Below, one piece after another: positions 4,254 through 41,317 of a stretch of DNA of 64,000 nucleotides. The stretch comes from a virus. The first letter of the stretch is position 1, and each line of letters begins with the position of its first letter. The stretch lies in the IMG/VR virus record IMGVR_UViG_3300025666_000002, positions 76,788-140,787 of that record; one strand, 5' to 3'. The position numbers were made by a program, and so were the translations under genes. The notes beneath the pieces are model-generated. The model was not told where the DNA came from. It worked only from the letters and a program-made list of their open reading frames with translations, and did no database searches.

Positions 4254-6080
4254 TTAAAAAACCACGGGCACAAAACCTGGCATTGGCACTGGACCAATTG
4301 GTGTTGGTATACCACCAAGGTAGAGTAATTTAAACTCTAATAAATGTAGAGCATATGTAGCTGCAAGTGCAGAAGCGACAGCTATGGCCGGCGGCTGCGT
4401 TGCCGGTATTTGTGAAAAAGTCTGCCCCATGTGCATAGCTCTTCTCAAGTTATTTGCCAGTCGATCTACACTACCATAATAAATTGGAATGTATAGACCA
4501 CCAAGTGGAGCTGGAATAAGAGCTGGTAGAGCGGATGGCGAAACCTTAAAAGGCTGTACTAATGTACTATACCAATAAGCAATTGTAGCTAAAGCAAGTT
4601 GCTTCCATGGATCTGTACCATCCTCGGTATTAAATAGACCGTTGTCCATAGATAGACCTGAATAGCACCTGTAGTCAAACGGTAGATCTACAGGCGCTTC
4701 TTCACAAGCAGCAGCATTATTTTCAGCCTGTTCACCTTGCCATTTAACAAACTCAAATAGAGTACCACCGCTAAGAGCTTTAAAGTCTGCAAATGTGCTA
4801 CTTGAGTTAAAAGCCCTTAACTGTGGATCTGGTGTTCTAACCCAGTTATTTTTATATTCAGTAACCACATATGTTGATACTACATGTAGCGGTGTTTTCT
4901 GCCATCTACTTAGGATTCTTTGTGTACCATCGGCTAATGTCTCTGTAAATGAAGAAGCATCAATACTACCAGCTGTAAAGGTAGATGGTAAGTAAACTCT
5001 TACATCTGGTCTCCATGAAAAGAAGGCAACAACAGCATCTGTCAATATTTTAGGCCTTTCACTAGGAGATTCTCTATTATAAGAAACTTGGATACGTTTT
5101 GGGTTCAATTCCTTTTCTGGCCTATCATTTCCAAAGGGCCATGGTTTTTGAATTGGATTAACAGCAGGTCTTTTAATTGCAGAGTCGATAGTATCGATAT
5201 TTACAACATTAGCAAAAGCACTATACCAGCTAGAAATATCAACAGGATGTGCCGCCATAATAGCATTTCTTACTTTGTTTGAAACGTTATCAATCAACGT
5301 TTGCCAGTTATAACCAGCAGCTGCAATTCCTGTTTTAACATTGTTATGTACGTTAATATAAGGTGCACTAAAGCCACTGCCTAAATTAACCCCGCTAAAG
5401 TTATAGCCTAGGTATTCTATTTTACCTAAAGATGAAACCCATTCAAAGAAACTCCAGCGTTCGTTTGGACTGCTTATTTTCTCAAACTGTTGTAAGAGCC
5501 TGTTCGCAAACATATCTTCAATCTGAGCCCGTGTGTCGCTGGGCTCAATACAGTGAAACTCGAAATAAGAGAAAGTGTAGAGCCTTGACCCTTCTTCTTC
5601 TAAGAACTGACAGAACTTCTTCTCGCGTTCGGCTTCTAGTTCTTCTTCAGTCGGTGGGTCTGGAATCTCAGTTGACATTTCATCATAAGGCTCAAGAGAT
5701 TCTTTGCCCTGTTCTGTAACATTGCCGTCTGCGTCTTTTTGATCTACTAAATAAGGTTCACCATTTCTAAAGATCTGCTCAAAGATTTCACCGTAGGCTT
5801 TAATAAAGATTTGTGCTGCTGGTGATTGAGTGTGTGTTGCACCAAATGGAGTTTGTGCAGTCTTAAGTGCATCTAAATAGAAGCCAGCTAAGGCTTCACC
5901 AAAATTCCTGCGGCCACTTGGTGTTACAAGTGGTACATATGTTTTAACGTTAAAGTTAGCGTTAATCTCAGCGCCTGGTCTATCTTGACCTTTCAGAACT
6001 CCTGGTCCACCAGCATTTGCATCGCCGTTTGCAATGTAACTACTAACGTCTGTTATGAATTTAGGCCATAGTGCTGGCAT
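4254..6080 (-). CDS. hypothetical protein, probably baseplate/tail associated
   Basis: 608-aa ORF overlapping the spike gene stop; no recognised motif. Confidence 0.6.
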   Translation of the reverse strand: MPALWPKFITDVSSYIANGDANAGGPGVLKGQDRPGAEINANFNVKTYVPLVTPSGRRNFGEALAGFYLDALKTAQTPFGATHTQSPAAQIFIKAYGEIFEQIFRNGEPYLVDQKDADGNVTEQGKESLEPYDEMSTEIPDPPTEEELEAEREKKFCQFLEEEGSRLYTFSYFEFHCIEPSDTRAQIEDMFANRLLQQFEKISSPNERWSFFEWVSSLGKIEYLGYNFSGVNLGSGFSAPYINVHNNVKTGIAAAGYNWQTLIDNVSNKVRNAIMAAHPVDISSWYSAFANVVNIDTIDSAIKRPAVNPIQKPWPFGNDRPEKELNPKRIQVSYNRESPSERPKILTDAVVAFFSWRPDVRVYLPSTFTAGSIDASSFTETLADGTQRILSRWQKTPLHVVSTYVVTEYKNNWVRTPDPQLRAFNSSSTFADFKALSGGTLFEFVKWQGEQAENNAAACEEAPVDLPFDYRCYSGLSMDNGLFNTEDGTDPWKQLALATIAYWYSTLVQPFKVSPSALPALIPAPLGGLYIPIYYGSVDRLANNLRRAMHMGQTFSQIPATQPPAIAVASALAATYALHLLEFKLLYLGGIPTPIGPVPMPGFVPVVF

Positions 6081-9633: not shown

Positions 9634-10638
9634 TTATTGACCACATGGAGCTGTACTACCAGTGCCGCTAGTGCCATTTCCGCCACCAGTGCCGCTAGTG
9701 CCATTTCCGCCATCGTTTTGGTTATCTCCATACTCGTCTGCTGAAGTACCGCTAGTGCCATTTCCGCCACCAGTGCCATTTCCGCCACCAGTGCCGCTAG
9801 TGCCATTTCCGCCACCAGTGCCATTTCCGCCACCAGTGCCATTTCCATCGCCACCATTTCTTAATTTATCAAAATAGAGCTGACTTTCAAAGCTACCTTG
9901 TATAGAACCGTTCGGATCTCCATATTCACCGTAGAGTGAGCCTGCAACTTCTTGTGCAACATCCGGGTTAACAGCAACCCAAGAGCCACCAGTCCAGCTC
10001 CATACTCCACCTGGAATCTTCTCAAATTGAGAGCCTGTGTTTTCACCGCCAATTGTAATTGTATCTCCTAGAAGATCTGTGTTAATCTCATCACCTGAAT
10101 CTGCATCAAGATTTCTATTAATAGCATCAACTACAGCATCGGTTTGTGCTTGAGCACCCATTCTAATCTGAGAGCCCACATATTCATAATTCTTTTTACC
10201 AACCGGTATTACATTCGGTGGCAACAGATTATCTTTACCATATTTCTTCTTTAAAGCATCAAGTCTACGCTGGTCCTTTTTGCTCAAGCGTTTACCTGAA
10301 ATAAACTGTAGTTTAACAGGATTATTTGTAGCATCAAATTCTTTCGGTCTTTCTAGCTTGTAGAAGGGAGCGTTTGCATGTGGAATTTCTAAGACATCAC
10401 CTTCGTTAATTGAAAATGGATCTGAAATAGAGTTCCATTTTAAGATCATATCAAGCTTACTCTGATTTCCATAATACTTCAATGCAATTAGATCTGGCCT
10501 TGCAGCTTGATCAGCATTAACAACATGCTCTGGATTAAGCAGTGTAATGTTTTCCTTGTTAGCAAAGATCATAGTTGGTTGTGTTAGGATATACCTAATA
10601 CCATCAGATGTTTTATTTATAAATGTCTTTAAATTCAT
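9634..10638 (-). CDS. baseplate wedge protein gp53-like (LysM-like) with Gly-rich tail
   Basis: RPDLIALKYYG...ILKWNSISDPFSINEGDVLEIP motif. Confidence 0.7.
   Translation of the reverse strand: MNLKTFINKTSDGIRYILTQPTMIFANKENITLLNPEHVVNADQAARPDLIALKYYGNQSKLDMILKWNSISDPFSINEGDVLEIPHANAPFYKLERPKEFDATNNPVKLQFISGKRLSKKDQRRLDALKKKYGKDNLLPPNVIPVGKKNYEYVGSQIRMGAQAQTDAVVDAINRNLDADSGDEINTDLLGDTITIGGENTGSQFEKIPGGVWSWTGGSWVAVNPDVAQEVAGSLYGEYGDPNGSIQGSFESQLYFDKLRNGGDGNGTGGGNGTGGGNGTSGTGGGNGTGGGNGTSGTSADEYGDNQNDGGNGTSGTGGGNGTSGTGSTAPCGQ
9655..9858 (-). repeat. coding tandem repeat encoding GGGNGT(SGT) units
   Basis: repeated ccaccagtgccatttccg / gtgccgcta units. Confidence 0.9.
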
Positions 10639-23314: not shown

Positions 23315-23578
23315 TTAGTCGTTAATAATAAGCGCTTTGAGACCATCGTTAGTTTTATATCGCCAGCCGTAGATTTCTTCAGCATCGCGATCGATACCAC
23401 ACATCTTAAAACTCTTGAGATTACCAGTCTTAGGGTTCTTAATTATCAGGGTCGTTGCTGGAGTTCCAATGCCAAGCATACTTGCTTCTTGTACAAACGC
23501 CTTGTTATCCTTTTGCCAGTCGAATTGTCCAACCTCGAAGAATTGCATTGTTCCGTTATCGTTCCAAAATGGTGTCAT
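23315..23578 (-). CDS. hypothetical protein
   Basis: directly downstream of a class I promoter repeat. Confidence 0.65.
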   Translation of the reverse strand: MTPFWNDNGTMQFFEVGQFDWQKDNKAFVQEASMLGIGTPATTLIIKNPKTGNLKSFKMCGIDRDAEEIYGWRYKTNDGLKALIIND

Positions 23579-23590
23579 AATTGCTTTGTT

Positions 23591-23654
23591 TTAATTACAG
23601 TGTAAATATAAACAAAAAGATTGACACTAGAAAACTTTTTTGCAACTTTTTTGC
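23591..23654 (-). promoter_or_regulatory. class I (early-type) ~65-bp promoter repeat, copy 1
   Basis: TGCAAAAAAGTTGCAAAAAAGTTTTCTAGTGTCAATCTTTTTGTTTATATTTACACTGTAATTAA on minus strand. Confidence 0.8.
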
Positions 23655-23678
23655 AAAAAAAAGGGCCCCAATGGGGCC
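23655..23678 (-). terminator. intrinsic terminator
   Basis: GGGCCCCA-t-TGGGGCCC inverted repeat + T8 on minus strand. Confidence 0.65.
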
Positions 23679-23703
23679 CAAGATCTATCTTGTTCAATCT
23701 AAA

Positions 23704-24390
23704 TTATCTAAATCTCATCTTAGGAACAGATACCTTCGGCATGTTCATCTTTGGCATTGCATTTGCCGGAGTTCGAGGCGGCATCTTAGGACTTGGTATT
23801 TCCTTTTGGCCTGTTGTGTTCGGTATTTCAGGTGATGGTCGTTGAGCATCTAAAGCCGGTACTCTGCCCATACTTGACTTAGGCGTAGAACGTGTATTTT
23901 CATTAGAATCAGGCCCGTCATCACTTTTAGGGTTTGTTATATTACTAACACTTTCAATGGCATATTCTCTTAGCTTATTAATAGCTTCTTCTTTTCTAGT
24001 CTTTAACCAGTCGCTAACATAAGATTTACCAGAGTTATAAATATTTGAAACTATATTACCATCAGCATCACTCTTTGCATCCACTTTCGTTTCATTAATA
24101 GGAGCTAAGTCTGATTTTTCTGAGGATTTAGCGCTAGACTTATTTTTCATGTCATTTACGCTTAAACCGTCTGAGCCTTTAGCTGGATCTTCAGCGTTAT
24201 TGACCTTATTTAAACCTTGGCCCTCTTTTGCAGAGAGTTCGCTCTGATTGTCGGTAATCTTAGAGCTACCGTTATTACTCGCATCGGATGTTGTACTTGT
24301 GAGATCTTGAGATACTGTAGGATCAGGCGTGCCGTTAATCTTACTCAACACGCTATTCTCTGATCTAAATTTAAGACTATCTCCTGCCAT
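23704..24390 (-). CDS. low-complexity Ser/Lys/Asn-rich protein with Pro/Met-rich C-terminus
   Basis: 228-aa ORF, GATATATA immediately upstream. Confidence 0.65.
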   Translation of the reverse strand: MAGDSLKFRSENSVLSKINGTPDPTVSQDLTSTTSDASNNGSSKITDNQSELSAKEGQGLNKVNNAEDPAKGSDGLSVNDMKNKSSAKSSEKSDLAPINETKVDAKSDADGNIVSNIYNSGKSYVSDWLKTRKEEAINKLREYAIESVSNITNPKSDDGPDSNENTRSTPKSSMGRVPALDAQRPSPEIPNTTGQKEIPSPKMPPRTPANAMPKMNMPKVSVPKMRFR

Positions 24391-24404
24391 AACATATATA
24401 TCCT

Positions 24405-24431
24405 AAAAAAGCCAGACCGAAGTCTGGCTTT
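24405..24431 (-). terminator. intrinsic terminator closing the ncRNA pair
   Basis: AAAGCCAGAC-TTCG-GTCTGGCTTTTTT, UUCG tetraloop. Confidence 0.85.
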
Positions 24432-24438
24432 AAAGTTA

Positions 24439-24684
24439 TAACAGGATCGTGTTCGTATTATTCAGCTCGGCAGCTATATCTCTTTTTACATCTTAGACTT
24501 CTGCTTCGACGGCCTACTATACTTCAGCTGGTCTGGTGCTTCTTCGTCAACAGTGAGAAGTTGATGGCGTGCTTGTAGTTTTCAACCAGGGCACTGCTTT
24601 CCGGGTCTTGTTAGCTCAATACAACCGAAATTGCTTCGCTAACTCTGTCATAGTATATAAGGTACTGTTTGCTGTACCGATCCT
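24439..24684 (-). ncRNA. candidate Y-RNA-like structured ncRNA 2 (~245 nt)
   Basis: 5' AGGAUCG pairs with 3' CGAUCCU; ACAGCAAAC just inside the 5' strand; 3' tail GUUA; no long ORF. Confidence 0.6.
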
Positions 24685-24685
24685 T

Positions 24686-24751
24686 TAACAGGTTTCTTGA
24701 ACTTTAACTTGATATTTGCTTGTAAGTATTGTAGTTTGCTGTAAGAAACCT
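24686..24751 (-). ncRNA. candidate Y-RNA-like ncRNA 1 (~66 nt)
   Basis: perfect 9-bp terminal stem AGGUUUCUU/AAGAAACCU, then ACAGCAAAC; 3' tail GUUA. Confidence 0.6.
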
Positions 24752-24797
24752 TATTTTGTTTATATATTAAAGAACTCTACGTCTATTGTTGCCATGT

Positions 24798-26243
24798 TTA
24801 CGCTTTAATGTTTTTATACCTTTCGCCCATGATTGTTTCATCCATGATACTAGCTGGCGTAAACTCTTCAGCTGCTATAACCGAAGTCATAATTGCTGGT
24901 GAGAATCCACTGATCAGCGCAGTACCTTGCTTGTCAAATCTAACTGGAGACTGACCATTTCTAGACTGAATGTTCCAGTATACGATCTTTGGCATTTTAT
25001 AACCAGCGTCATTGTACATTTTCTCAATCATTTGTTGAGCAGTTGGGTTCCATTCAGCAGTATTGTCATTTCTGCCCCAGTAACCTCTAGTTGAAGTTGC
25101 TTCGTCAAACTCCATATCTGATAGGATCAAGATCTTATCAGGCATTTGGTCTTGTGAGACGCTGTGCTTTACAGCCTGGTCTAGGACTTGCTTAAAGGCT
25201 GCTTCAAGGTTAGTGTTCATTGCCCACTCTGATCGGCTTAACTGTTGGAATCTGTCTTTCAAGCTTCCAGTCAAGATCTGTAATTCTGGCTTACCGCTGA
25301 AAGTTAAGAACGCATCTTTAAAAGGACCCACATTCTTTTCAGAAATATAGAGACCTAATGAAACTGCAACATCCATACAAGTTACGTTTGGATTACCGCC
25401 AGCTGGAGTATTCATTGAACCTGAAACGTCTACCATTGGCAAGATCATTTCGTTGGCTCCTTCCATCCAGTTTGGTAGTGCTTTCCACTGCTCGGTCGCA
25501 ACGTCAGCGTTTCCTCTGTGCAGAGACTTAGTAATATCGTAAGGATAAACTGCACCAGCATTGATCTTAGCCTCACCTTTTTGCAGTTTACCAATGTAGG
25601 CCTCGTATTGATCCTTAGCATTCTTCCAGAACGCTTTTTGATAACGAGCACCTGCAACTGAAGGCAGTTTAGAGAAGTCAATGTCTTCCCACTTCTTAGC
25701 ACACATTAGCTGCTCAACTACGTTAGTTAGACTAACCAGAACCTTACGGTAAAGCTTTGGCGTTAAGCCCATATGATTACGTAACTTAGCTGCAGTAACT
25801 CCTTTACGTGGCATCCACTTTGCACACAGTCCATTTTGATCTTCAAGAAGAGCCTTTTGAATTAGGTTAAAAGCATCCGCTTGTAATTTAGTGTCCTCAA
25901 GGACTAGAAGGTCATCCCAACGTCCGAATTCTGGAATTAGGTTGAGGTTTATCTTCAAGGCTTCTGGATGAGACTCCAACAAGTAGCCCATAATATCACG
26001 GAAGATTTGACGCTCTCCAGCTCCACCGCGAACATCACGAGCCCAGAACAAGATTTTCATTGCTCGAGTCGGATCTTGGTAAAATGCCTTTGAGAAAGTT
26101 GCGATTAAACGATCTTTGTCTTGACCGCGCATAGCACCTATATTAAAGAATAGGTCTACAACTGCGCTTAAAGAGCTACTGTTGGTTGCCATGCCATTTT
26201 CAGTCAAACAGTCCTCTTGACGAAGTGCGTCTACTAGTTTCAT
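24798..26243 (-). CDS. DUF2828-family TROVE/Ro60-like helical domain plus vWA domain protein
   Basis: TENG, WARDVRGGAGER, FGRWDDL, AKWMPR; vWA MIDAS DVSGSM, TFS, ILSDMEFD, YWN, SGFSP. Confidence 0.85.
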   Translation of the reverse strand: MKLVDALRQEDCLTENGMATNSSSLSAVVDLFFNIGAMRGQDKDRLIATFSKAFYQDPTRAMKILFWARDVRGGAGERQIFRDIMGYLLESHPEALKINLNLIPEFGRWDDLLVLEDTKLQADAFNLIQKALLEDQNGLCAKWMPRKGVTAAKLRNHMGLTPKLYRKVLVSLTNVVEQLMCAKKWEDIDFSKLPSVAGARYQKAFWKNAKDQYEAYIGKLQKGEAKINAGAVYPYDITKSLHRGNADVATEQWKALPNWMEGANEMILPMVDVSGSMNTPAGGNPNVTCMDVAVSLGLYISEKNVGPFKDAFLTFSGKPELQILTGSLKDRFQQLSRSEWAMNTNLEAAFKQVLDQAVKHSVSQDQMPDKILILSDMEFDEATSTRGYWGRNDNTAEWNPTAQQMIEKMYNDAGYKMPKIVYWNIQSRNGQSPVRFDKQGTALISGFSPAIMTSVIAAEEFTPASIMDETIMGERYKNIKA

Positions 26244-26307
26244 ATCGATAAGTTTAAAGTTCAGTAGTATATATTATGATACTACCAAAAAGTTTCAACT
26301 AGAGCAC

Positions 26308-26336
26308 AAAAAAAGGCCAAACAAATGTTTGGCCTT
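26308..26336 (-). terminator. intrinsic terminator
   Basis: AAGGCCAAACA-tt-TGTTTGGCCTT followed by T run. Confidence 0.7.
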
Positions 26337-26358
26337 CAATTTATAACTTATTGTTAGC

Positions 26359-26421
26359 TTATGCTAGTCCATGTTCGTATCTTAAACTCTTCCATCTGCG
26401 CCAACATGTAAATTCTCTCAT
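26359..26421 (-). CDS. possible 20-aa microprotein MREFTCWRRWKSLRYEHGLA
   Basis: ATGA overlap with marC stop; ends before terminator. Confidence 0.3.
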   Translation of the reverse strand: MREFTCWRRWKSLRYEHGLA

Positions 26422-27023
26422 ATTGTGTTTATTACGCTAGAAGCATATTGAATGCTTAGTAGCAGGTTCTGTAACAGGATCTTCATGCCTATTGCAATCA
26501 GGATAATACCGAAGACACGTTCGACGATGATAATGCCAGTTGTGCCAACTTTGTTTTTAATCCAATCCGCACTCTTGAGAACGAGATAGATCACAACAGA
26601 GTTTAAGACAATTGCAACTACAATCTCAAGTTTAGTAAACTCACTTGTCAGTGACATAATCGTCGACAGAGTACCCGGCCCGGCTATTAACGGAAACGCA
26701 ACTGGAAATATAGTAGCCTTCATGGCCTCTTTTTTCTGCTGCCCGTTATCATCAATACCAAGTACCATCTTAACGCCAAAGTAGAGGATTAAGAATGAAC
26801 CTGCAAGGCCGAAGTGAAACGTTTCGATGCCCAAGAGTTGAAAGACATATGTACCTACAAAGAGAGTGCCTATCATAATACATGCTGCAATATAAGTGCC
26901 CTTAAATGACTCTATTTCGCCATGTGTCTTTCTGAGCTTAATAATCAGCGGCACGTTACCGACCATGTCGATAACCGCAAATAATGTTAACGTTGCTGTT
27001 AAAATATTGAGTATTGTTTGCAT
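26418..27023 (-). CDS. marC: MarC family membrane protein
   Basis: six hydrophobic segments, FPVAFPLIAGPG, ERVFGIILIAIG. Confidence 0.9.
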   Translation of the reverse strand: MQTILNILTATLTLFAVIDMVGNVPLIIKLRKTHGEIESFKGTYIAACIMIGTLFVGTYVFQLLGIETFHFGLAGSFLILYFGVKMVLGIDDNGQQKKEAMKATIFPVAFPLIAGPGTLSTIMSLTSEFTKLEIVVAIVLNSVVIYLVLKSADWIKNKVGTTGIIIVERVFGIILIAIGMKILLQNLLLSIQYASSVINTI

Positions 27024-27044
27024 TTCTATATTAGTATAAGTTTA

Positions 27045-27260
27045 TTAATATAAGTAATTTTCTACCGCTGTGTAAACGAAATCTGAATCTTCATTCATTT
27101 CCTCTACTTCATCCTCAGTGGCATCTCGAAAGGTACCGTCCTCGTTTTCAATAGTTGCACTAGCGATATAAGCATCGCAGAAATCTGGATAGTCTCTTGT
27201 ATCAATTCCATCTACTTCAATGTCGTGTACTTTACTGTAATCTAATTCTACTTTAGTCAT
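27045..27260 (-). CDS. small acidic phage protein
   Basis: DGIDTRDYPDFCDAYI motif. Confidence 0.7.
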   Translation of the reverse strand: MTKVELDYSKVHDIEVDGIDTRDYPDFCDAYIASATIENEDGTFRDATEDEVEEMNEDSDFVYTAVENYLY

Positions 27261-27287
27261 AATTTTTATTTTTTAATGGTTTAACTT

Positions 27288-27337
27288 TTAATTATAGAAC
27301 AAATATAAACATAATATTTGAATCGGTAAAACTTTTT
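27288..27337 (-). promoter_or_regulatory. class I promoter repeat, degenerate copy 2
   Basis: AAAAAGTTTT...GTTTATATTTGTTCTATAATTAA. Confidence 0.55.
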
Positions 27338-28379
27338 ATGAAGTTTTTTCATTAAAAGGCTTCTCGTAAGCCGGTTTTATCATCTTCCAGATTAATTGTT
27401 TCACTTTATCTTCTTTAGTGTTATACATAGCAAAAATAAGTCCATGATTGACTCCATTTAACTCTTGAACTCTCAGTGCAAATTCTTTACGATCAAGTCC
27501 ATATCTAAGAGTGCTGGAAAGATGTGCCATATGCTGATTGAAAACAAAATCATACTCTTCTTTCAAGCGCACTTCCAGTTGGTTAACCCAATCGTAGAAC
27601 TCATCCGGAACATCTTTCAACATCTCTTCAGGTAACTTACCAAAAGTCTTTAAGTTTTCCCAGACATCGTAAGAAGAACAGTTAGTCAAGACTCGGTGTA
27701 ATTTCACATAGTCAGCAAACTTGATCTTACAACGATCTCCATTAGAGAACCTAACGATAAAACCCTCTTTGTTATCCCAGTTCAGCTTTTGAATCTCATT
27801 GTAGTCCTTAAAGTCATACCTCTTAACGATGTTAAAAATGCTGTTCTGCCAGTAATCCATACCCAACTCTTCACCAGAAGCAGTATGAATCTCACCTAAC
27901 ATAACTACATCCTCCATGTCACCATAGTTTACAACGATCCGGTTTTCAGGGTAAATAATCTCAAACATGTAAGTATTAGTCACTGTAAGGTGAGAGGTCA
28001 TATACTTGCTTGTGAAGATCTCCTTAAACTTTAAGGCCTGCTCAGAGGTAAAAGAACCACGTGATGCAAAGACCCATTCACCGTTGTAGTAGAACATGAT
28101 GCCTAATGAACCATCCATCTTCTCGTAGATCTCAAATTCATTTGTTGCAGTGTGCTTGTTCTCCTCGATGTTAAAGAACTTCTTGAATGGACGAGCAACA
28201 ATAGTACCCATATCATCTACTACAAGTCCACGGCACTGAAGAGTAACCTCGTCCCAATGTGCATCATACTGAGTTGCTTGAGAGTAGTTGTAAATAGTTA
28301 ATGGCAGAGTTGGGTGAGTCTGTGAGATCAGCCAACCTTCCGCTACATATCTGTCTAATATGTCTTTAGTTATCTTCAT
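27336..28379 (-). CDS. T4 Rnl1-like RNA ligase
   Basis: CRGLV, ARPFKKFFN, EKMDGSL (motif I), SRGSF, FEII, EGF, KIK. Confidence 0.9.
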   Translation of the reverse strand: MKITKDILDRYVAEGWLISQTHPTLPLTIYNYSQATQYDAHWDEVTLQCRGLVVDDMGTIVARPFKKFFNIEENKHTATNEFEIYEKMDGSLGIMFYYNGEWVFASRGSFTSEQALKFKEIFTSKYMTSHLTVTNTYMFEIIYPENRIVVNYGDMEDVVMLGEIHTASGEELGMDYWQNSIFNIVKRYDFKDYNEIQKLNWDNKEGFIVRFSNGDRCKIKFADYVKLHRVLTNCSSYDVWENLKTFGKLPEEMLKDVPDEFYDWVNQLEVRLKEEYDFVFNQHMAHLSSTLRYGLDRKEFALRVQELNGVNHGLIFAMYNTKEDKVKQLIWKMIKPAYEKPFNEKTS

Positions 28380-30787: not shown

Positions 30788-31942
30788 TCATATTGTTTTT
30801 TTGTATTTTTCAGCCTCTATTTCTTTAATCTTTTGCGCAATTTGTGGTCCCTTAACGCCAAACTCTCGCATTACCCAATTACCATCGGTTGTTGGTTTGT
30901 ACTTTAAGAAGGCCTTAATTTGCTTCAGATCTAATCTATTTATCTTCGCAAACTGTGTAATTACATCCTTGTCAACCTTGGTGGTCACCCACTGCTTGTA
31001 AAGGTCAAACACATTTTCAGGCTTAAGGTCCCTCAGGTTCTTTAGAAAGACCACAGCATTAACCTCGTCTGACGTAAAAGTCATCCTATTCATCTCCTTC
31101 TTAATCATATCGTTTGAGTTCATATCAAACAGGTGAGTCAATTGAATAGGCCAAGTGTTAGTATTGACAAAATTGGTTGAAATTACAAGATTTGGAAACA
31201 TAATATCCCATAGACTAAAGTGACTAACCATATTTAAGTAGTCGACTGGCTTCTTTGCAGATTCAATTGACTTCTTAAACTCATCACGAATCCTTTCAGG
31301 GCTAACACCTTCCAGGCTATTGTCGGTCAAGATAGCATCTGCCGTCTCCTTCTCTAGTTTAGAACCAGTCCTGCCTGCAAATCTGAGTGCTCTCAGCTTT
31401 CTTAATGGATCTTCAGCAAATCGATCAGCAGCAGCGCCAACAGTTCGAATCTTCTGGTCCTGGATGTCTTTTAATCCTCCAACCAGGTCAACAATCTCGC
31501 CTCTACCAATATCGTAAAAGAGAGCGTTGATTGTTAAGTCTCGTCTAAGAACATCCTTGTCGATGGTTGAGTATTTTACAGCATCTGGTCTGCGACCTCC
31601 TGAAAGGTCCTCTCTAAACGTGGCAATCTCAACTCCATTCTTATCTGAAGGTATTTGCACAATCACAACACCAAACTGCTGCCCAACCTCTCCAATCGTA
31701 GAGTAACCAGCCCCTTGGACCATGTTAACCACCTCTTCTGGAAAGGCATCAGTTGCAAGGTCAAAATCCTTAGGCTTTTTACCCATGATTGCATCTCTGA
31801 CAGCACCGCCAACAATATAGAGCTCCTTACCATTCTTTTGGAATAGTTTATGTAGGTCTATAATATCTGAAGGCACATTGAGCCTAAGTGAGCTCTGTGC
31901 CTCGTTGACCATTTGGAATTCTGTAAATGTTTTAAGTTGCAT
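30788..31942 (-). CDS. class II tRNA nucleotidyltransferase (CCA-adding/poly(A) polymerase family)
   Basis: VGGAVRD, DFDLAT, EIATFR, RRDLTINAL, EDPLRKLRALRF, SPERI. Confidence 0.92.
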   Translation of the reverse strand: MQLKTFTEFQMVNEAQSSLRLNVPSDIIDLHKLFQKNGKELYIVGGAVRDAIMGKKPKDFDLATDAFPEEVVNMVQGAGYSTIGEVGQQFGVVIVQIPSDKNGVEIATFREDLSGGRRPDAVKYSTIDKDVLRRDLTINALFYDIGRGEIVDLVGGLKDIQDQKIRTVGAAADRFAEDPLRKLRALRFAGRTGSKLEKETADAILTDNSLEGVSPERIRDEFKKSIESAKKPVDYLNMVSHFSLWDIMFPNLVISTNFVNTNTWPIQLTHLFDMNSNDMIKKEMNRMTFTSDEVNAVVFLKNLRDLKPENVFDLYKQWVTTKVDKDVITQFAKINRLDLKQIKAFLKYKPTTDGNWVMREFGVKGPQIAQKIKEIEAEKYKKTI

Positions 31943-33023: not shown

Positions 33024-33479
33024 TTAAAAGTTACCTGGAGCTACTTGAAAACAGCTGATACCATTCTCTCTCCACATTTTTACTACTTTATCTCGGTCAT
33101 CAAAGACACACATGATCTCGTGGCCTGCTGCCATTTCTTGATCTAACCACTCTTTCTTCAACACGTCATCTGGCGTGAAAGAACCCTGCATTCTCATGAA
33201 CAAGAAGTCTGGTTGAATGCCGTGCTGTGCTAACCAATCTTCAGTCTGTTGACGACTAATAGAGTCTCGACCACTAAAGATACCAACCCGAAAGCCAGCA
33301 GCCTTCATTGCTTTAAAGCTTGCAATCACTGGCAAGTTTGGCTCATCCAAAGAGATATTCTCTGGTGCAAAGAAAGTCTTCCAGTTAATTTTACCATTTG
33401 GCTTAGCTGCCAAAACACGTCTCTTATCGATCAAGGCCAAAGTACCGTCCAAATCGAATATTACTGTTTGTTGTTTCAT
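33024..33479 (-). CDS. HAD phosphatase, T4 PNKP 3'-phosphatase-like
   Basis: FDLDGTLA, SGR, FMR, DDVLK, FDDRDKVVKMWR, CFQVAPGNF. Confidence 0.88.
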   Translation of the reverse strand: MKQQTVIFDLDGTLALIDKRRVLAAKPNGKINWKTFFAPENISLDEPNLPVIASFKAMKAAGFRVGIFSGRDSISRQQTEDWLAQHGIQPDFLFMRMQGSFTPDDVLKKEWLDQEMAAGHEIMCVFDDRDKVVKMWRENGISCFQVAPGNF

Positions 33480-41014: not shown

Positions 41015-41317
41015 TTATATATCTAGCTTGACTGTGTCTGTTACTTTGTCTAACTCTTTTTTAATGACAATACATTTTTCAAAGTCTTCGTCCTCTTCAA
41101 AGTGCTTAAGCATAATATCGAGAGTCTGTTGTAGTGAGACAAGCTCATCGTTCTCCATATTACGTAGATGCCATTCACCAAGACCATTCTTCTCAAGCTG
41201 TTTGTAGTTCTGTTCAATAGCCTCGAGCATCATGCGTTCTCGGTATTCCTCTAGTTTGGCTTCGAAAGCACCGTTGCTCTCTTCCATAAAATCTTCAAAG
41301 TTAAAATCGTCTTCCAT
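41015..41317 (-). CDS. small acidic protein with C-terminal UVR-like motif
   Basis: HFEEDEDFEKCIVIKKELD. Confidence 0.6.
   Translation of the reverse strand: MEDDFNFEDFMEESNGAFEAKLEEYRERMMLEAIEQNYKQLEKNGLGEWHLRNMENDELVSLQQTLDIMLKHFEEDEDFEKCIVIKKELDKVTDTVKLDI

What the first reader, a model, noticed from the sequence alone, without database searches (positions are those of the whole stretch)
24405..26243. Ro60/TROVE-like protein followed by two tandem stem-closed ncRNAs sharing an ACAGCAAAC motif: candidate phage Ro/Y-RNA-like system
Seen in sequence: 46 nt after the DUF2828-vWA stop, the minus strand carries two back-to-back elements of the same design. RNA1 (24751-24686) is AGGUUUCUU-ACAGCAAAC...AAGAAACCU-GUUA, a perfect 9-bp closing stem, with a second near-copy of the motif (CUUACAAGCAAA) inside. 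RNA2 (24684-24439) is AGGAUCG-GU-ACAGCAAAC...CGAUCCU-GUUA, a 7-bp closing stem around ~230 nt with further possible helices (e.g. UCAAC/GUUGA, UAUACU/AGUAUA). The stem sequences differ but each pairs with its own 3' end, which looks like covariation. A 5-nt GUUAA linker joins them, an AATATATA motif lies upstream (24761-24768) and a UUCG terminator follows. Established: bacterial Ro60 (helical TROVE + vWA with DxSxS MIDAS) binds Y RNAs whose 5' and 3' ends pair, and the genes sit together, often in RNA-repair operons. Inference: DUF2828 is a Ro60-like protein and these are its cognate RNAs, with ACAGCAAAC next to the stem as the binding site and the interiors as variable effector or decoy modules.
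Basis: partly seen in the sequence, partly recalled or inferred. Interest (0 to 1): 0.88.

Follow-up and report, generated by a model that had tools for sequence, protein, structure and literature searches.

The report
Phage Ro60-like protein with partner RNAs
A marine phage encodes a ring-shaped Ro60-like RNA-binding protein followed by two small RNA genes that share one "handle" (a short clamp helix plus ACAGCAA); this pairing recurs in very different phages and in a giant-virus-like contig, I found no paper on it, and the handle matches the unexplained Class I RNAs of social amoebae.

Summary
The 481-aa DUF2828/DUF7788 protein (24798-26243, minus strand) is predicted to fold like Ro60 over its whole length (Z 14-20, invariant DxSxS MIDAS). 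It is not a TROVE member by sequence. Just downstream lie a promoter-like RATATATA motif, RNA1 (66 nt), RNA2 (about 245 nt) and a terminator.

Each RNA is closed by a 7-9-bp helix followed by ACAGCAA, with a G after the 3' arm. Both closing helices covary across relatives. A covariance model of the handle finds it in 9 of 9 phage genomes that carry DUF2828. These hits lie beside the gene or in the tRNA array. In 4 phages without the gene it finds nothing with E below 0.2. It also finds three copies beside a eukaryote-type DUF2828 gene on a giant-virus-like contig.

RNA1 has all four conserved features of Dictyostelium Class I RNAs, and RF01414 is the only Rfam family that matches the handles, below threshold. 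An RNA-repair gene block lies upstream. Binding and function are inferred, not shown.

This scan has already noted the same system on other DNA (129 notes, at least 108 genomes). I reached the same reading independently. I found no published description.

The parts
24798..26243 (-). Gene for a 481-aa DUF2828 + DUF7788 (vWA) protein with a predicted Ro60-like HEAT ring and vWA domain; MIDAS residues D272-x-S274-x-S276
   Evidence: Pfam PF11443 E 9e-36 and PF25043 E 2e-51. PHROG 850 'RNA-binding protein' E 2e-154. Structure model matched to Ro60. Invariant D272, S274, S276 in 24 homologues.
24761..24768 (-). AATATATA, a promoter-like motif 9 nt upstream of the RNA1 stem
   Evidence: RATATATA occurs 16 times on the coding (minus) strand and once on the plus strand, mostly 4-30 nt before start codons. 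Its function as a promoter is inferred.
24686..24751 (-). RNA1, 66 nt. 5' arm 24751-24743, ACAGCAAAC 24742-24734, internal near-copy ACAAGCAAA, 3' arm 24698-24690, then GUUA
   Evidence: Sequence and fold. Models R1 53.4 bits and R2 49.8 bits, E 1.3e-9. Stem covariation in 31 orthologues: 98% paired, 4 pairs with double changes, 0 of 500 shuffles as high. RF01414 gives 28.8 bits, E 0.018.
24439..24684 (-). RNA2, about 245 nt. 5' arm 24684-24678, GU, ACAGCAAAC 24675-24667. Internal hairpins include 24643-24638 with 24615-24610, and 24475-24472 with 24467-24464. Invariant ACGAA 24456-24452, 3' arm 24449-24443, then GUUA
   Evidence: Sequence and fold. In the 20-sequence alignment A3 the closing stem is 100% paired, with CG/AU/GC at one position. 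Over four helices, 12 of 19 pairs have double changes and 0 of 500 shuffles are as high. Window-type subset. The interior of the window's own copy fits only part of the majority structure.
24405..24432 (-). Intrinsic-terminator-like hairpin GCCAGAC-UUCG-GUCUGGC followed by U6, ending the RNA unit
   Evidence: Read directly from the sequence. The same hairpin was aligned as a terminator-like stem. The consensus scan did not list it.
27336..28379 (-). T4 Rnl1-type RNA ligase gene (context)
   Evidence: PF09511 E 2e-16
30788..31942 (-). CCA-adding / poly(A) polymerase-family nucleotidyltransferase gene (context)
   Evidence: PF01743 E 4e-34, PF12627
32238..32636 (-). Small P-loop kinase (AAA_33), a candidate polynucleotide kinase (context)
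   Evidence: PF13671 E 3e-11
33024..33479 (-). PNKP-type HAD phosphatase gene (context)
   Evidence: PF25109 E 6e-34

Best explanation
This is a phage ribonucleoprotein system of the Ro60/Y-RNA kind, built from a different protein family and a different RNA signature. The DUF2828 protein has a predicted HEAT-repeat ring capped by a vWA/MIDAS domain. It is followed by a separate small transcription unit: RATATATA motif, RNA1, a 5-nt linker, RNA2 and a terminator. Both RNAs carry the family-wide handle. Their 5' and 3' ends pair in a 7-9-bp helix. The 5' arm is followed, after 0-2 nt, by single-stranded ACAGCAA, and the 3' arm is followed by a conserved G. I infer that the handle is the protein's docking site, as the terminal stem of Y RNA is for Ro60. 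I further infer that the variable bodies are effector modules that gate the ring or tether it to other factors. These bodies are an A/C-rich loop with a second AAGCAA in RNA1 and a roughly 230-nt multi-helix domain in RNA2. In other phages the body is a permuted tRNA-like domain. The locus closes a gene block encoding PNKP phosphatase, a kinase, a CCA-adding enzyme and an Rnl1 ligase, and in other phages the RNAs sit inside tRNA arrays. The particle therefore most likely works in surveillance, repair or protection of tRNA and other RNA during infection, possibly as a counter-defence. Shown: the predicted fold, conservation and covariation of the RNAs, and gene-RNA co-occurrence. Inferred: binding, processing and biological role.
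For: (1) Fold. Ro60/TROVE structures are the top 12 Foldseek hits. They stand at Z 19.9-14.3 over about 395-400 residues, against at most 11.7 for vWA-only hits. MIDAS DxSxS is invariant. (2) RNA conservation. In most of the 58 IMG/VR loci L001-L058 (58-94% protein identity to the window), two motifs 58-67 nt apart lie downstream on the gene strand. The RNA1 stem has 4 covarying pairs, and U.G occurs in 27 of 31 sequences at the outer pair, which fits RNA of this strand only. RNA2 has 12 of 19 pairs with double changes. (3) Breadth. Handles lie beside the gene in Felixounavirus Alf5 (4), Listeria LMLPA3 (3), Mycobacterium Gardann (2), Bacillus Tsamsa (3) and Campylobacter CP30A. (4) Specificity. 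Whole-genome searches with R2 place every hit with E below 0.01 within about 1 kb of the gene in five phages, and five such adjacent hits were not used to build the model. In Vibrio CZ01, Aeromonas PX29 and Citrobacter Ci1 the hits lie about 10 kb away, in PX29 at the head of the tRNA array. As a blind control, T4, T5, SPO1 and phiKZ have neither PF11443 nor an R2 hit with E below 0.2, while KVP40 has both. (5) Y-RNA-like modules. L081:4916-5049 and L088:696-826 carry a T arm, a capped acceptor-like stem and a D arm inside the handle, by my reading of the sequence. This is the YrlA layout (PMC4201824). (6) Context. Rnl1, a CCA-adding enzyme, a kinase and a PNKP phosphatase lie upstream on the same strand, and the Listeria phage locus has an RtcB-type ligase. 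(7) Precedent. Thermus phage phiLo Ro60 binds two Y-like RNAs encoded beside its gene (PMC12135203). (8) Hint of expression. The stretch is in 6 metatranscriptome runs from 3 studies. In run X17 a 327-nt contig, adapter-flanked and covering 24445-24722, has word depth 297, against 3-20 for contigs over the ORF. It bridges the RNA1/RNA2 junction.
Against: No binding data exist for any DUF2828 protein with these RNAs. The protein is not a TROVE member by sequence, and the model is of moderate confidence (pLDDT 79.6, with residues 1-24 and 384-399 poor). The handle differs from the Ro60-binding helix of Y RNAs, and no Y RNA or YrlA model of Rfam matches. The gene and the RNAs are about 7-10 kb apart in several T4-like phages, so adjacency is not universal. 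Related loci are not independent samples. The RNA-library evidence comes from assembled contigs, which cannot prove transcription, strand or ends, and the adapter-flanked contig could reflect amplified copies of one fragment. In Dictyostelium the proven direct binder of a Class I RNA is an RRM protein (Rnp1A), not a Ro-like protein.
Confidence: 0.75

Rival explanations
1. The handle RNAs are real stable RNAs of the phage tRNA/RNA-repair module, but their partner is another factor: a host protein, an RRM-type or other phage protein, or an RNA-repair enzyme. On this view DUF2828 only shares the pathway or the regulation.
For: In several T4-like phages the RNAs lie in or near the tRNA array, 7-10 kb from the gene. 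In Dictyostelium the demonstrated direct binder of Class I RNA DdR-21 is the RRM protein Rnp1A (PMC7919456). The handle is unlike the known Ro60-binding helix.
Against: Gene and RNA co-occur in 9 of 9 DUF2828-positive genomes and in 0 of 4 negative ones. Tight adjacency is kept in distantly related phages while the other neighbouring genes differ. The protein has the fold of a protein family whose known job is to bind exactly this kind of end-paired RNA.
Confidence: 0.15
2. The elements are cis-acting parts of the DUF2828 mRNA, such as 3'-UTR stabilisers or an autoregulatory site, rather than separate RNAs.
For: They follow the stop codon by 46 nt on the same strand, and no terminator lies between the gene and RNA1.
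Against: A promoter-like motif of the type that precedes genes in this phage sits between the stop codon and RNA1. In the Listeria and Campylobacter phages the elements lie upstream of the gene. In Felix O1-type, Tsamsa and PX29 phages they are interleaved with tRNAs or lie 10 kb away. Relatives have a 92-aa ORF inserted between the gene and RNA1. In run X17 the contig over the RNAs has 15-100 times the depth of the contigs over the ORF.
Confidence: 0.05
3. They are DNA-level repeats (recombination, homing or replication sites), or chance inverted repeats beside a short common word.
For: Single-sequence fold energies are unremarkable. ACAGCAAAC alone is only mildly over-represented in the window.
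Against: There is a strong strand bias relative to the gene: 144 against 13 motifs and 46 against 1 handles. Compensatory changes keep the pairing while the stem sequences differ completely between lineages. The conserved U.G pair would be C.A on the other strand. Lengths vary and some carry tRNA-like inserts.
Confidence: 0.03

Closest known systems
Ro60 (Rsr/TROVE) with Y RNAs. The nearest cases are Thermus phage phiLo Ro60 with Yrl1/Yrl2 (PDB 9KOP, 9L5Y; PMC12135203) and bacterial or mycobacteriophage Rsr with YrlA/YrlB next to rtcBA (PMC4201824).
   Same: Predicted HEAT ring plus vWA with MIDAS. Small RNAs whose 5' and 3' ends pair are encoded beside the gene, and there are two RNAs per locus, as in phiLo and Salmonella. 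The RNA bodies are variable and in some phages are permuted tRNA-like domains like YrlA. RNA ligase and end-healing genes lie nearby.
   Different: There is no TROVE sequence signature; the protein belongs to Pfam DUF2828/DUF7788. The RNA signature is a helix, then NN-ACAGCAA, with a 3' G, not the bulged Ro-binding helix or the GNCGAA motif. No Rfam Y RNA or YrlA match was found. RNA2 is far longer than Y RNAs. Binding is untested.
Class I RNAs of dictyostelid social amoebae (Rfam RF01414; Kjellin et al. 2021, PMC7919456)
   Same: RNA1 has all four conserved features: a start ..AAG, a short terminal stem, UCUUACAGCAA against the 11-nt motif CCUUACAGCAA next to the 5' arm, and the end CUGU. Its length is about 60 nt and its interior is variable. 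RF01414 is the only Rfam family that matches the handles, full length, in the window, in L004, in a Listeria phage and in a Felix O1-type phage.
   Different: Scores of 17-29 bits are below the gathering score of 41.5. The RNAs are phage-encoded, with no DUSE promoter. RNA2 is about 245 nt. Class I RNAs were reported as unique to Dictyostelia, and their shown partner is Rnp1A. I could not establish whether Dictyostelia have a DUF2828 protein.
Bas63 gp130 (Felixounavirus), reported as structurally Ro60-like, upstream of the tRNA genes and a counter of the Ppl defence (PhageMaP preprint 10.1101/2024.10.10.617714)
   Same: A Ro60-like phage protein directly upstream of a tRNA array, the arrangement I see for the DUF2828 gene of Felixounavirus Alf5. 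The authors guessed at Y-RNA partners.
   Different: I did not check gp130 by sequence. The authors suggested that some annotated tRNAs are the Y RNAs. Here the candidates are the unannotated ACAGCAA-handle RNAs between the tRNAs.

Membership tests
DUF2828 / DUF7788 (Pfam PF11443, PF25043; PHROG 850) | Profile match above the curated cut-off | tested here: met
   124 bits against a cut-off of 29, and 175 bits against 27.1. PHROG 850 E 2e-154.
Ro60 / TROVE (PF05731) | TROVE sequence signature | tested here: not met
   No PF05731 hit at E up to 10. A profile of 24 homologues against PDB sequences reaches TROVE chains only at E 0.21, over 40 residues of the vWA part.
Ro60 / TROVE (PF05731) | Ring of HEAT-like repeats closed by a C-terminal vWA domain | tested here: met
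   Predicted model only (pLDDT 79.6). Foldseek top 12 hits are all Ro60, E 6.6e-10 to 4e-5. VIA-align Z 19.9 (9kop, rmsd 4.3 over 399 residues) down to 14.3 (2nvo).
Ro60 / TROVE (PF05731) | MIDAS motif DxSxS in the vWA domain | tested here: met
   D272, S274 and S276 are invariant in 24 homologues.
Ro60 / TROVE (PF05731) | Binds a small RNA through the helix formed by its 5' and 3' ends | not testable with these tools
   Candidate RNAs with paired ends co-occur with the gene.
Y RNA / YrlA (Rfam) | Match to the family covariance models; conserved Ro-binding helix (GNCGAA-type motif in YrlA) | tested here: not met
   No such match at the gathering score in the window, nor at E up to 10 over 23500-27500. 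RNA2 has an invariant ACGAA beside its 3' arm, but it does not fit GNCGAA.
Dictyostelium Class I RNA (RF01414) | Rfam gathering score (41.5 bits) | tested here: not met
   28.8 bits, E 0.018 for RNA1. 28.2 bits for L004. 23.1 and 18.5 in the Listeria phage. 20.1 and 17.5 in Alf5. None in Tsamsa.
Dictyostelium Class I RNA (RF01414) | Start AAG, terminal stem of about 6 bp, 11-nt motif CCUUACAGCAA beside the 5' arm, end CUGU (PMC7919456) | tested here: met
   RNA1 reads uAAG-GUUUC-UUACAGCAA ... GAAAC-CUGU, matching 10 of 11 motif letters. RNA2 reads AAAGGAUCG-GU-ACAGCAA ... CGAUCCUGU.
Dictyostelium Class I RNA (RF01414) | Length 42-65 nt; DUSE promoter; dictyostelid genome | tested here: not met
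   RNA1 is about 62-66 nt (borderline) and RNA2 about 245 nt. The genome is a 140.8-kb virus record. The upstream motif is RATATATA.
ACAGCAA-handle RNAs accompanying DUF2828 (unpublished; defined in this scan) | Terminal 7-9-bp helix, 0-2 nt, ACAGCAA (variants UCAGCAA, ACUGCAA), G after the 3' arm; same genome as a DUF2828 gene | tested here: met
   Both RNAs fit. R2 gives 49.8 bits for RNA1. RNA2 shares the handle but is too long for the model.

The most novel reading that the evidence does not exclude
The ACAGCAA-handle RNAs of phages and giant-virus-like contigs are homologous to the Class I RNAs of Dictyostelia, and DUF2828 proteins are the general, so far unrecognised, partner of this RNA class. 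That would define a second Ro60/Y-RNA-like particle family spanning phages, eukaryotic viruses and eukaryotes. It would also give Class I RNAs, thought unique to social amoebae and tied to multicellular development, an origin and a testable protein partner. One candidate to check is the uncharacterised pull-down protein DDB_G0281243.
Probability: 0.4. Interest if true: 0.9.

Novelty: new variant of a known kind. Interest (0 to 1): 0.8.

Why it matters
DUF2828 is a very large family of unknown function. More than 7,900 proteins passed E 0.001 in one capped search, 711 phage records carry it, and eukaryote-type members exist. Pairing it with a defined, easily recognised RNA handle turns it into a testable ribonucleoprotein. 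It predicts what the many phage proteins annotated 'RNA-binding' or 'Ro-like' actually bind. It explains conserved 'spacers' inside phage tRNA arrays. It offers a concrete partner and origin for the Class I RNAs of social amoebae, whose function has been open since 2004. The link to RNA-repair genes, and to a reported anti-defence phenotype of a Felix O1-type Ro60-like protein, makes it relevant to phage-host conflicts over tRNA.

Tried and rejected
- **Dictyostelium link at the protein level.** I tried a 'longer' search with the C-terminal 301 aa and an exhaustive search with a haptophyte-type member. I picked A/T-rich hits by composition and made three cluster look-ups. I also ran a profile of 12 A/T-rich members and searched the supplements of Kjellin 2021. 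These found algal members (Chrysochromulina, Epipyxis, Ochromonadaceae) and a megavirus member, but no named dictyostelid. The question stays open, and this is not evidence of absence.
- **Avesson 2011** is not held.
- **Literature.** DUF2828, PF11443, ACAGCAA with phage, and Ro-like with Felix gave no paper on these RNAs.
- **ARAGORN** found no tRNA or tmRNA in the window.
- **Rfam** gave nothing at gathering scores.
- **MAFFT across lineages (A4)** misaligned the 3' arms. I used model-fitted alignments instead.
- **A CAGC:GCUG pairing** of the RNA2 motif, proposed by RNAalifold on the window-type subset, is invariant and absent from the majority subtype. I do not adopt it.
- **A GUAC...GUAC hairpin** around the RNA2 motif never varies informatively.
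- **Majority-type helices 2 and 3 of RNA2** do not form in the window's own copy.
- **The terminator scan** did not list the hairpin after RNA2.
- **Read laying.** Parts without cover in single runs, and contig depths, cannot rank expression. A skip of 24496-24663 in one contig of X18 probably comes from a relative with a shorter RNA2.
- **Complex prediction** was not used, because it scores protein-protein pairs only.
Full report
**What is in the window.** On the minus strand a 481-aa ORF (24798-26243) matches Pfam DUF2828 and DUF7788 and PHROG 850 'RNA-binding protein'. Between its stop codon and the next ORF (start 24390) lie about 400 nt with no ORF of 40 aa or more. Reading 5' to 3', this stretch holds five things:
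- AATATATA at 24768-24761.
- RNA1 at 24751-24686, with a perfect 9-bp terminal helix. ACAGCAAAC directly follows the 5' arm, a near-copy ACAAGCAAA lies inside, and GUUA follows the 3' arm.
- A 5-nt linker, GUUAA.
- RNA2 at 24684 to about 24439, with a 7-bp terminal helix, then GU, then ACAGCAAAC. Its interior is about 230 nt, and GUUA follows the 3' arm.
- A GC-rich UUCG hairpin with a U6 tail at about 24430-24405.

**Is it more than chance?** Not on this sequence alone. Fold energies are ordinary, and the 9-mer occurs 3 times against 0.9 expected. The case rests on relatives.
- I fetched 80 IMG/VR loci encoding the protein at 58-94% identity. In most of L001-L058, two ACAGCAA words 58-67 nt apart lie downstream on the gene strand, each with its own closing helix.
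- Over the 80 loci the word occurs 144 times on the gene strand and 13 times on the other. Short handles occur 46 times against 1, and shuffled loci give 1-10.
- In 31 distinct RNA1 orthologues the helix is 98% paired. Four of 8 pairs change on both sides, 0 of 500 shuffles score as high, and sliding the partner columns destroys the pairing.
- The outermost pair is U.G in 27 of 31 sequences. That is a pair only in RNA of this strand.
- In 20 RNA2 orthologues the closing helix is 100% paired, with CG, AU and GC at one position. Over four helices, 12 of 19 pairs change on both sides, again with 0 of 500 shuffles as high. This structure was derived from the same alignment.
- The interior of RNA2 exists in at least two subtypes. 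The window's copy shares the handle, a 5' hairpin (24643-24610) and a 3' hairpin (24475-24464), but not all the majority helices.

**The protein.** An AlphaFold model built on 24 homologues (pLDDT 79.6, pTM 0.77) matches Ro60/TROVE structures over its whole length.
- The top 12 Foldseek hits are Thermus phage phiLo Ro60, Deinococcus Rsr, and Xenopus and human Ro60 (E 6.6e-10 to 4e-5).
- VIA-align gives Z 19.9 to 14.3 over about 395-400 residues. Matches to the vWA domain alone stay at or below 11.7.
- The MIDAS residues D272, S274 and S276 are invariant.
- By sequence it is not a TROVE protein. There is no PF05731 hit at E up to 10, and a family profile reaches TROVE chains in the PDB only at E 0.21.
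- The fold likeness is not new. A preprint describes Bas63 gp130 as Ro60-like, and mycobacteriophage homologues are annotated 'Ro-like RNA binding protein'.

**Breadth and specificity of the pairing.** Homologues occur in 711 phage records. By direct inspection, handles lie beside the gene in:
- Felixounavirus Alf5: four, hidden between tRNA genes.
- Listeria phage LMLPA3: three, upstream of the gene.
- Mycobacterium phage Gardann: two, flanking tRNA-Asn.
- Bacillus phage Tsamsa: three.
- Campylobacter phage CP30A: one.

All have 7-9-bp perfect helices of unrelated sequence. Some relatives use UCAGCAA or ACUGCAA instead. These variants keep the positions that the Dictyostelium paper reports as invariant.

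I built a broader covariance model, R2, and searched whole genomes.
- In five phages every hit with E below 0.01 lies within about 1 kb of the gene. Five such adjacent hits were not used to build the model.
- In Vibrio CZ01, Aeromonas PX29 and Citrobacter Ci1 the hits lie about 10 kb from the gene. In PX29 they sit at the head of the tRNA array.
- As a blind control I took five well-known phages. T4, T5, SPO1 and phiKZ have neither PF11443 nor an R2 hit with E below 0.2. KVP40 turned out to have both: a 479-aa open frame matching PF11443 and a 44-bit hit 7 kb away on the same strand.
- Three tandem handles also follow a eukaryote-type DUF2828 gene on a 105-kb contig whose genes look like a giant virus.

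**Likeness to Y RNAs and to Class I RNAs.** Two of the longer handle RNAs (L081:4916-5049, L088:696-826) enclose a T arm, a capped acceptor-like hairpin and a D arm. This is the permuted tRNA-like layout described for YrlA (PMC4201824).

Separately, RF01414 (Dictyostelium Class I RNA) is the only Rfam family that matches the handles. It aligns full length but below threshold: 28.8 bits for RNA1, 28.2 for L004, 23.1 and 18.5 in the Listeria phage, and 20.1 and 17.5 in Alf5. Kjellin et al. (PMC7919456) define Class I RNAs by a start AAG, a roughly 6-bp terminal stem, the motif CCUUACAGCAA beside the 5' arm and the end CUGU. RNA1 reads uAAG-GUUUC-UUACAGCAA ... GAAAC-CUGU. That paper reports the class as unique to Dictyostelia. 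Its preprint lists an uncharacterised pull-down partner, DDB_G0281243. I could not determine whether dictyostelids encode a DUF2828 protein.

**Context and expression.**
- Upstream on the same strand lie an Rnl1-type ligase, a CCA-adding-type nucleotidyltransferase, a small kinase and a PNKP phosphatase. This recalls the bacterial rsr-yrlBA-rtcBA operon. Relatives keep parts of this neighbourhood.
- RATATATA occurs 16 times on the coding strand and once on the other, mostly just before start codons. One copy sits 9 nt before the RNA1 stem, so the RNAs probably have their own promoter.
- The stretch is present in six metatranscriptome runs from three studies.
- In run X17 an adapter-flanked 327-nt contig covering 24445-24722 has word depth 297, against 3-20 for contigs over the ORF. 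It bridges the RNA1/RNA2 junction. This is a hint of an abundant co-transcript, not proof.

**Verdict.** The best reading (0.75) is a Ro60-like particle in which the handle docks the RNAs on the DUF2828 ring and the variable bodies act as effector or tether modules. A likely role is tRNA/RNA surveillance, repair or counter-defence. The rival readings are another protein partner (0.15), cis-regulatory UTR elements (0.05), and DNA repeats or chance (0.03).

The system is a new variant of a known kind. I found no published description of the RNAs. This scan has already noted the same pairing on other DNA: 129 notes in at least 108 genomes. I consulted those notes only after reaching my own reading, and they agree with it.

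Noticed in passing
window 41023 and 60733 (minus strand): Two further RATATATA motifs are not followed by a start codon within 50 nt. At 41023 a GC-rich hairpin-like stretch follows. These may mark other non-coding transcripts.
   Followed up: no
L089-L093, about 50 nt after the DUF2828 stop (e.g. L089:2696-2974): Close relatives carry a 92-aa ORF with no Pfam hit on record between the DUF2828 gene and RNA1. The window lacks it, and RNA-library contigs from relatives show a 250-nt insertion at window 24775/24776.
   Followed up: partly
L081:4293-4368 and L081:4452-4525 (Escherichia phage Alf5, NC_031082): tRNA-like genes ending in CCA, not annotated in the record, alternate with the handle RNAs. 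Rfam tRNA gives 48 bits for 4452-4525.
   Followed up: partly
L082:4360-4480 (Citrobacter phage Ci1, beside its annotated 'tRNA-Pseudo'): A tRNA-like sequence has acceptor, D and T arms, and its anticodon region is replaced by an insert containing CUCUACAGCAAAAC. It lacks the usual handle helix. The R2 hits in this phage lie 10 kb away.
   Followed up: no
window 24452-24456 (minus strand): ACGAA, 2-3 nt before the 3' arm of RNA2, is invariant in 20 orthologues. It recalls the CGAA of the YrlA/Yrl Ro-binding site but does not fit GNCGAA.
   Followed up: no
window 9957-10016 (plus strand): A handle-like match (UCCGGGU-UA-ACAGCAACC ... ACCUGGA), on the opposite strand to the two RNAs and without the flanking AAG or G. 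It is probably chance.
   Followed up: partly
Campylobacter phage CP30A, NC_018861: 30938-30999: A second weak R2 hit (E 0.019) lies far from the gene I examined. This phage has two places matching the protein, and I did not check whether the hit lies near the second one.
   Followed up: no
L092:3283-3352 and L092:3771-3840: One relative has two near-identical RNA1 copies separated by an 85-aa ORF, with no ACAGCAA-bearing RNA2 between them.
   Followed up: no
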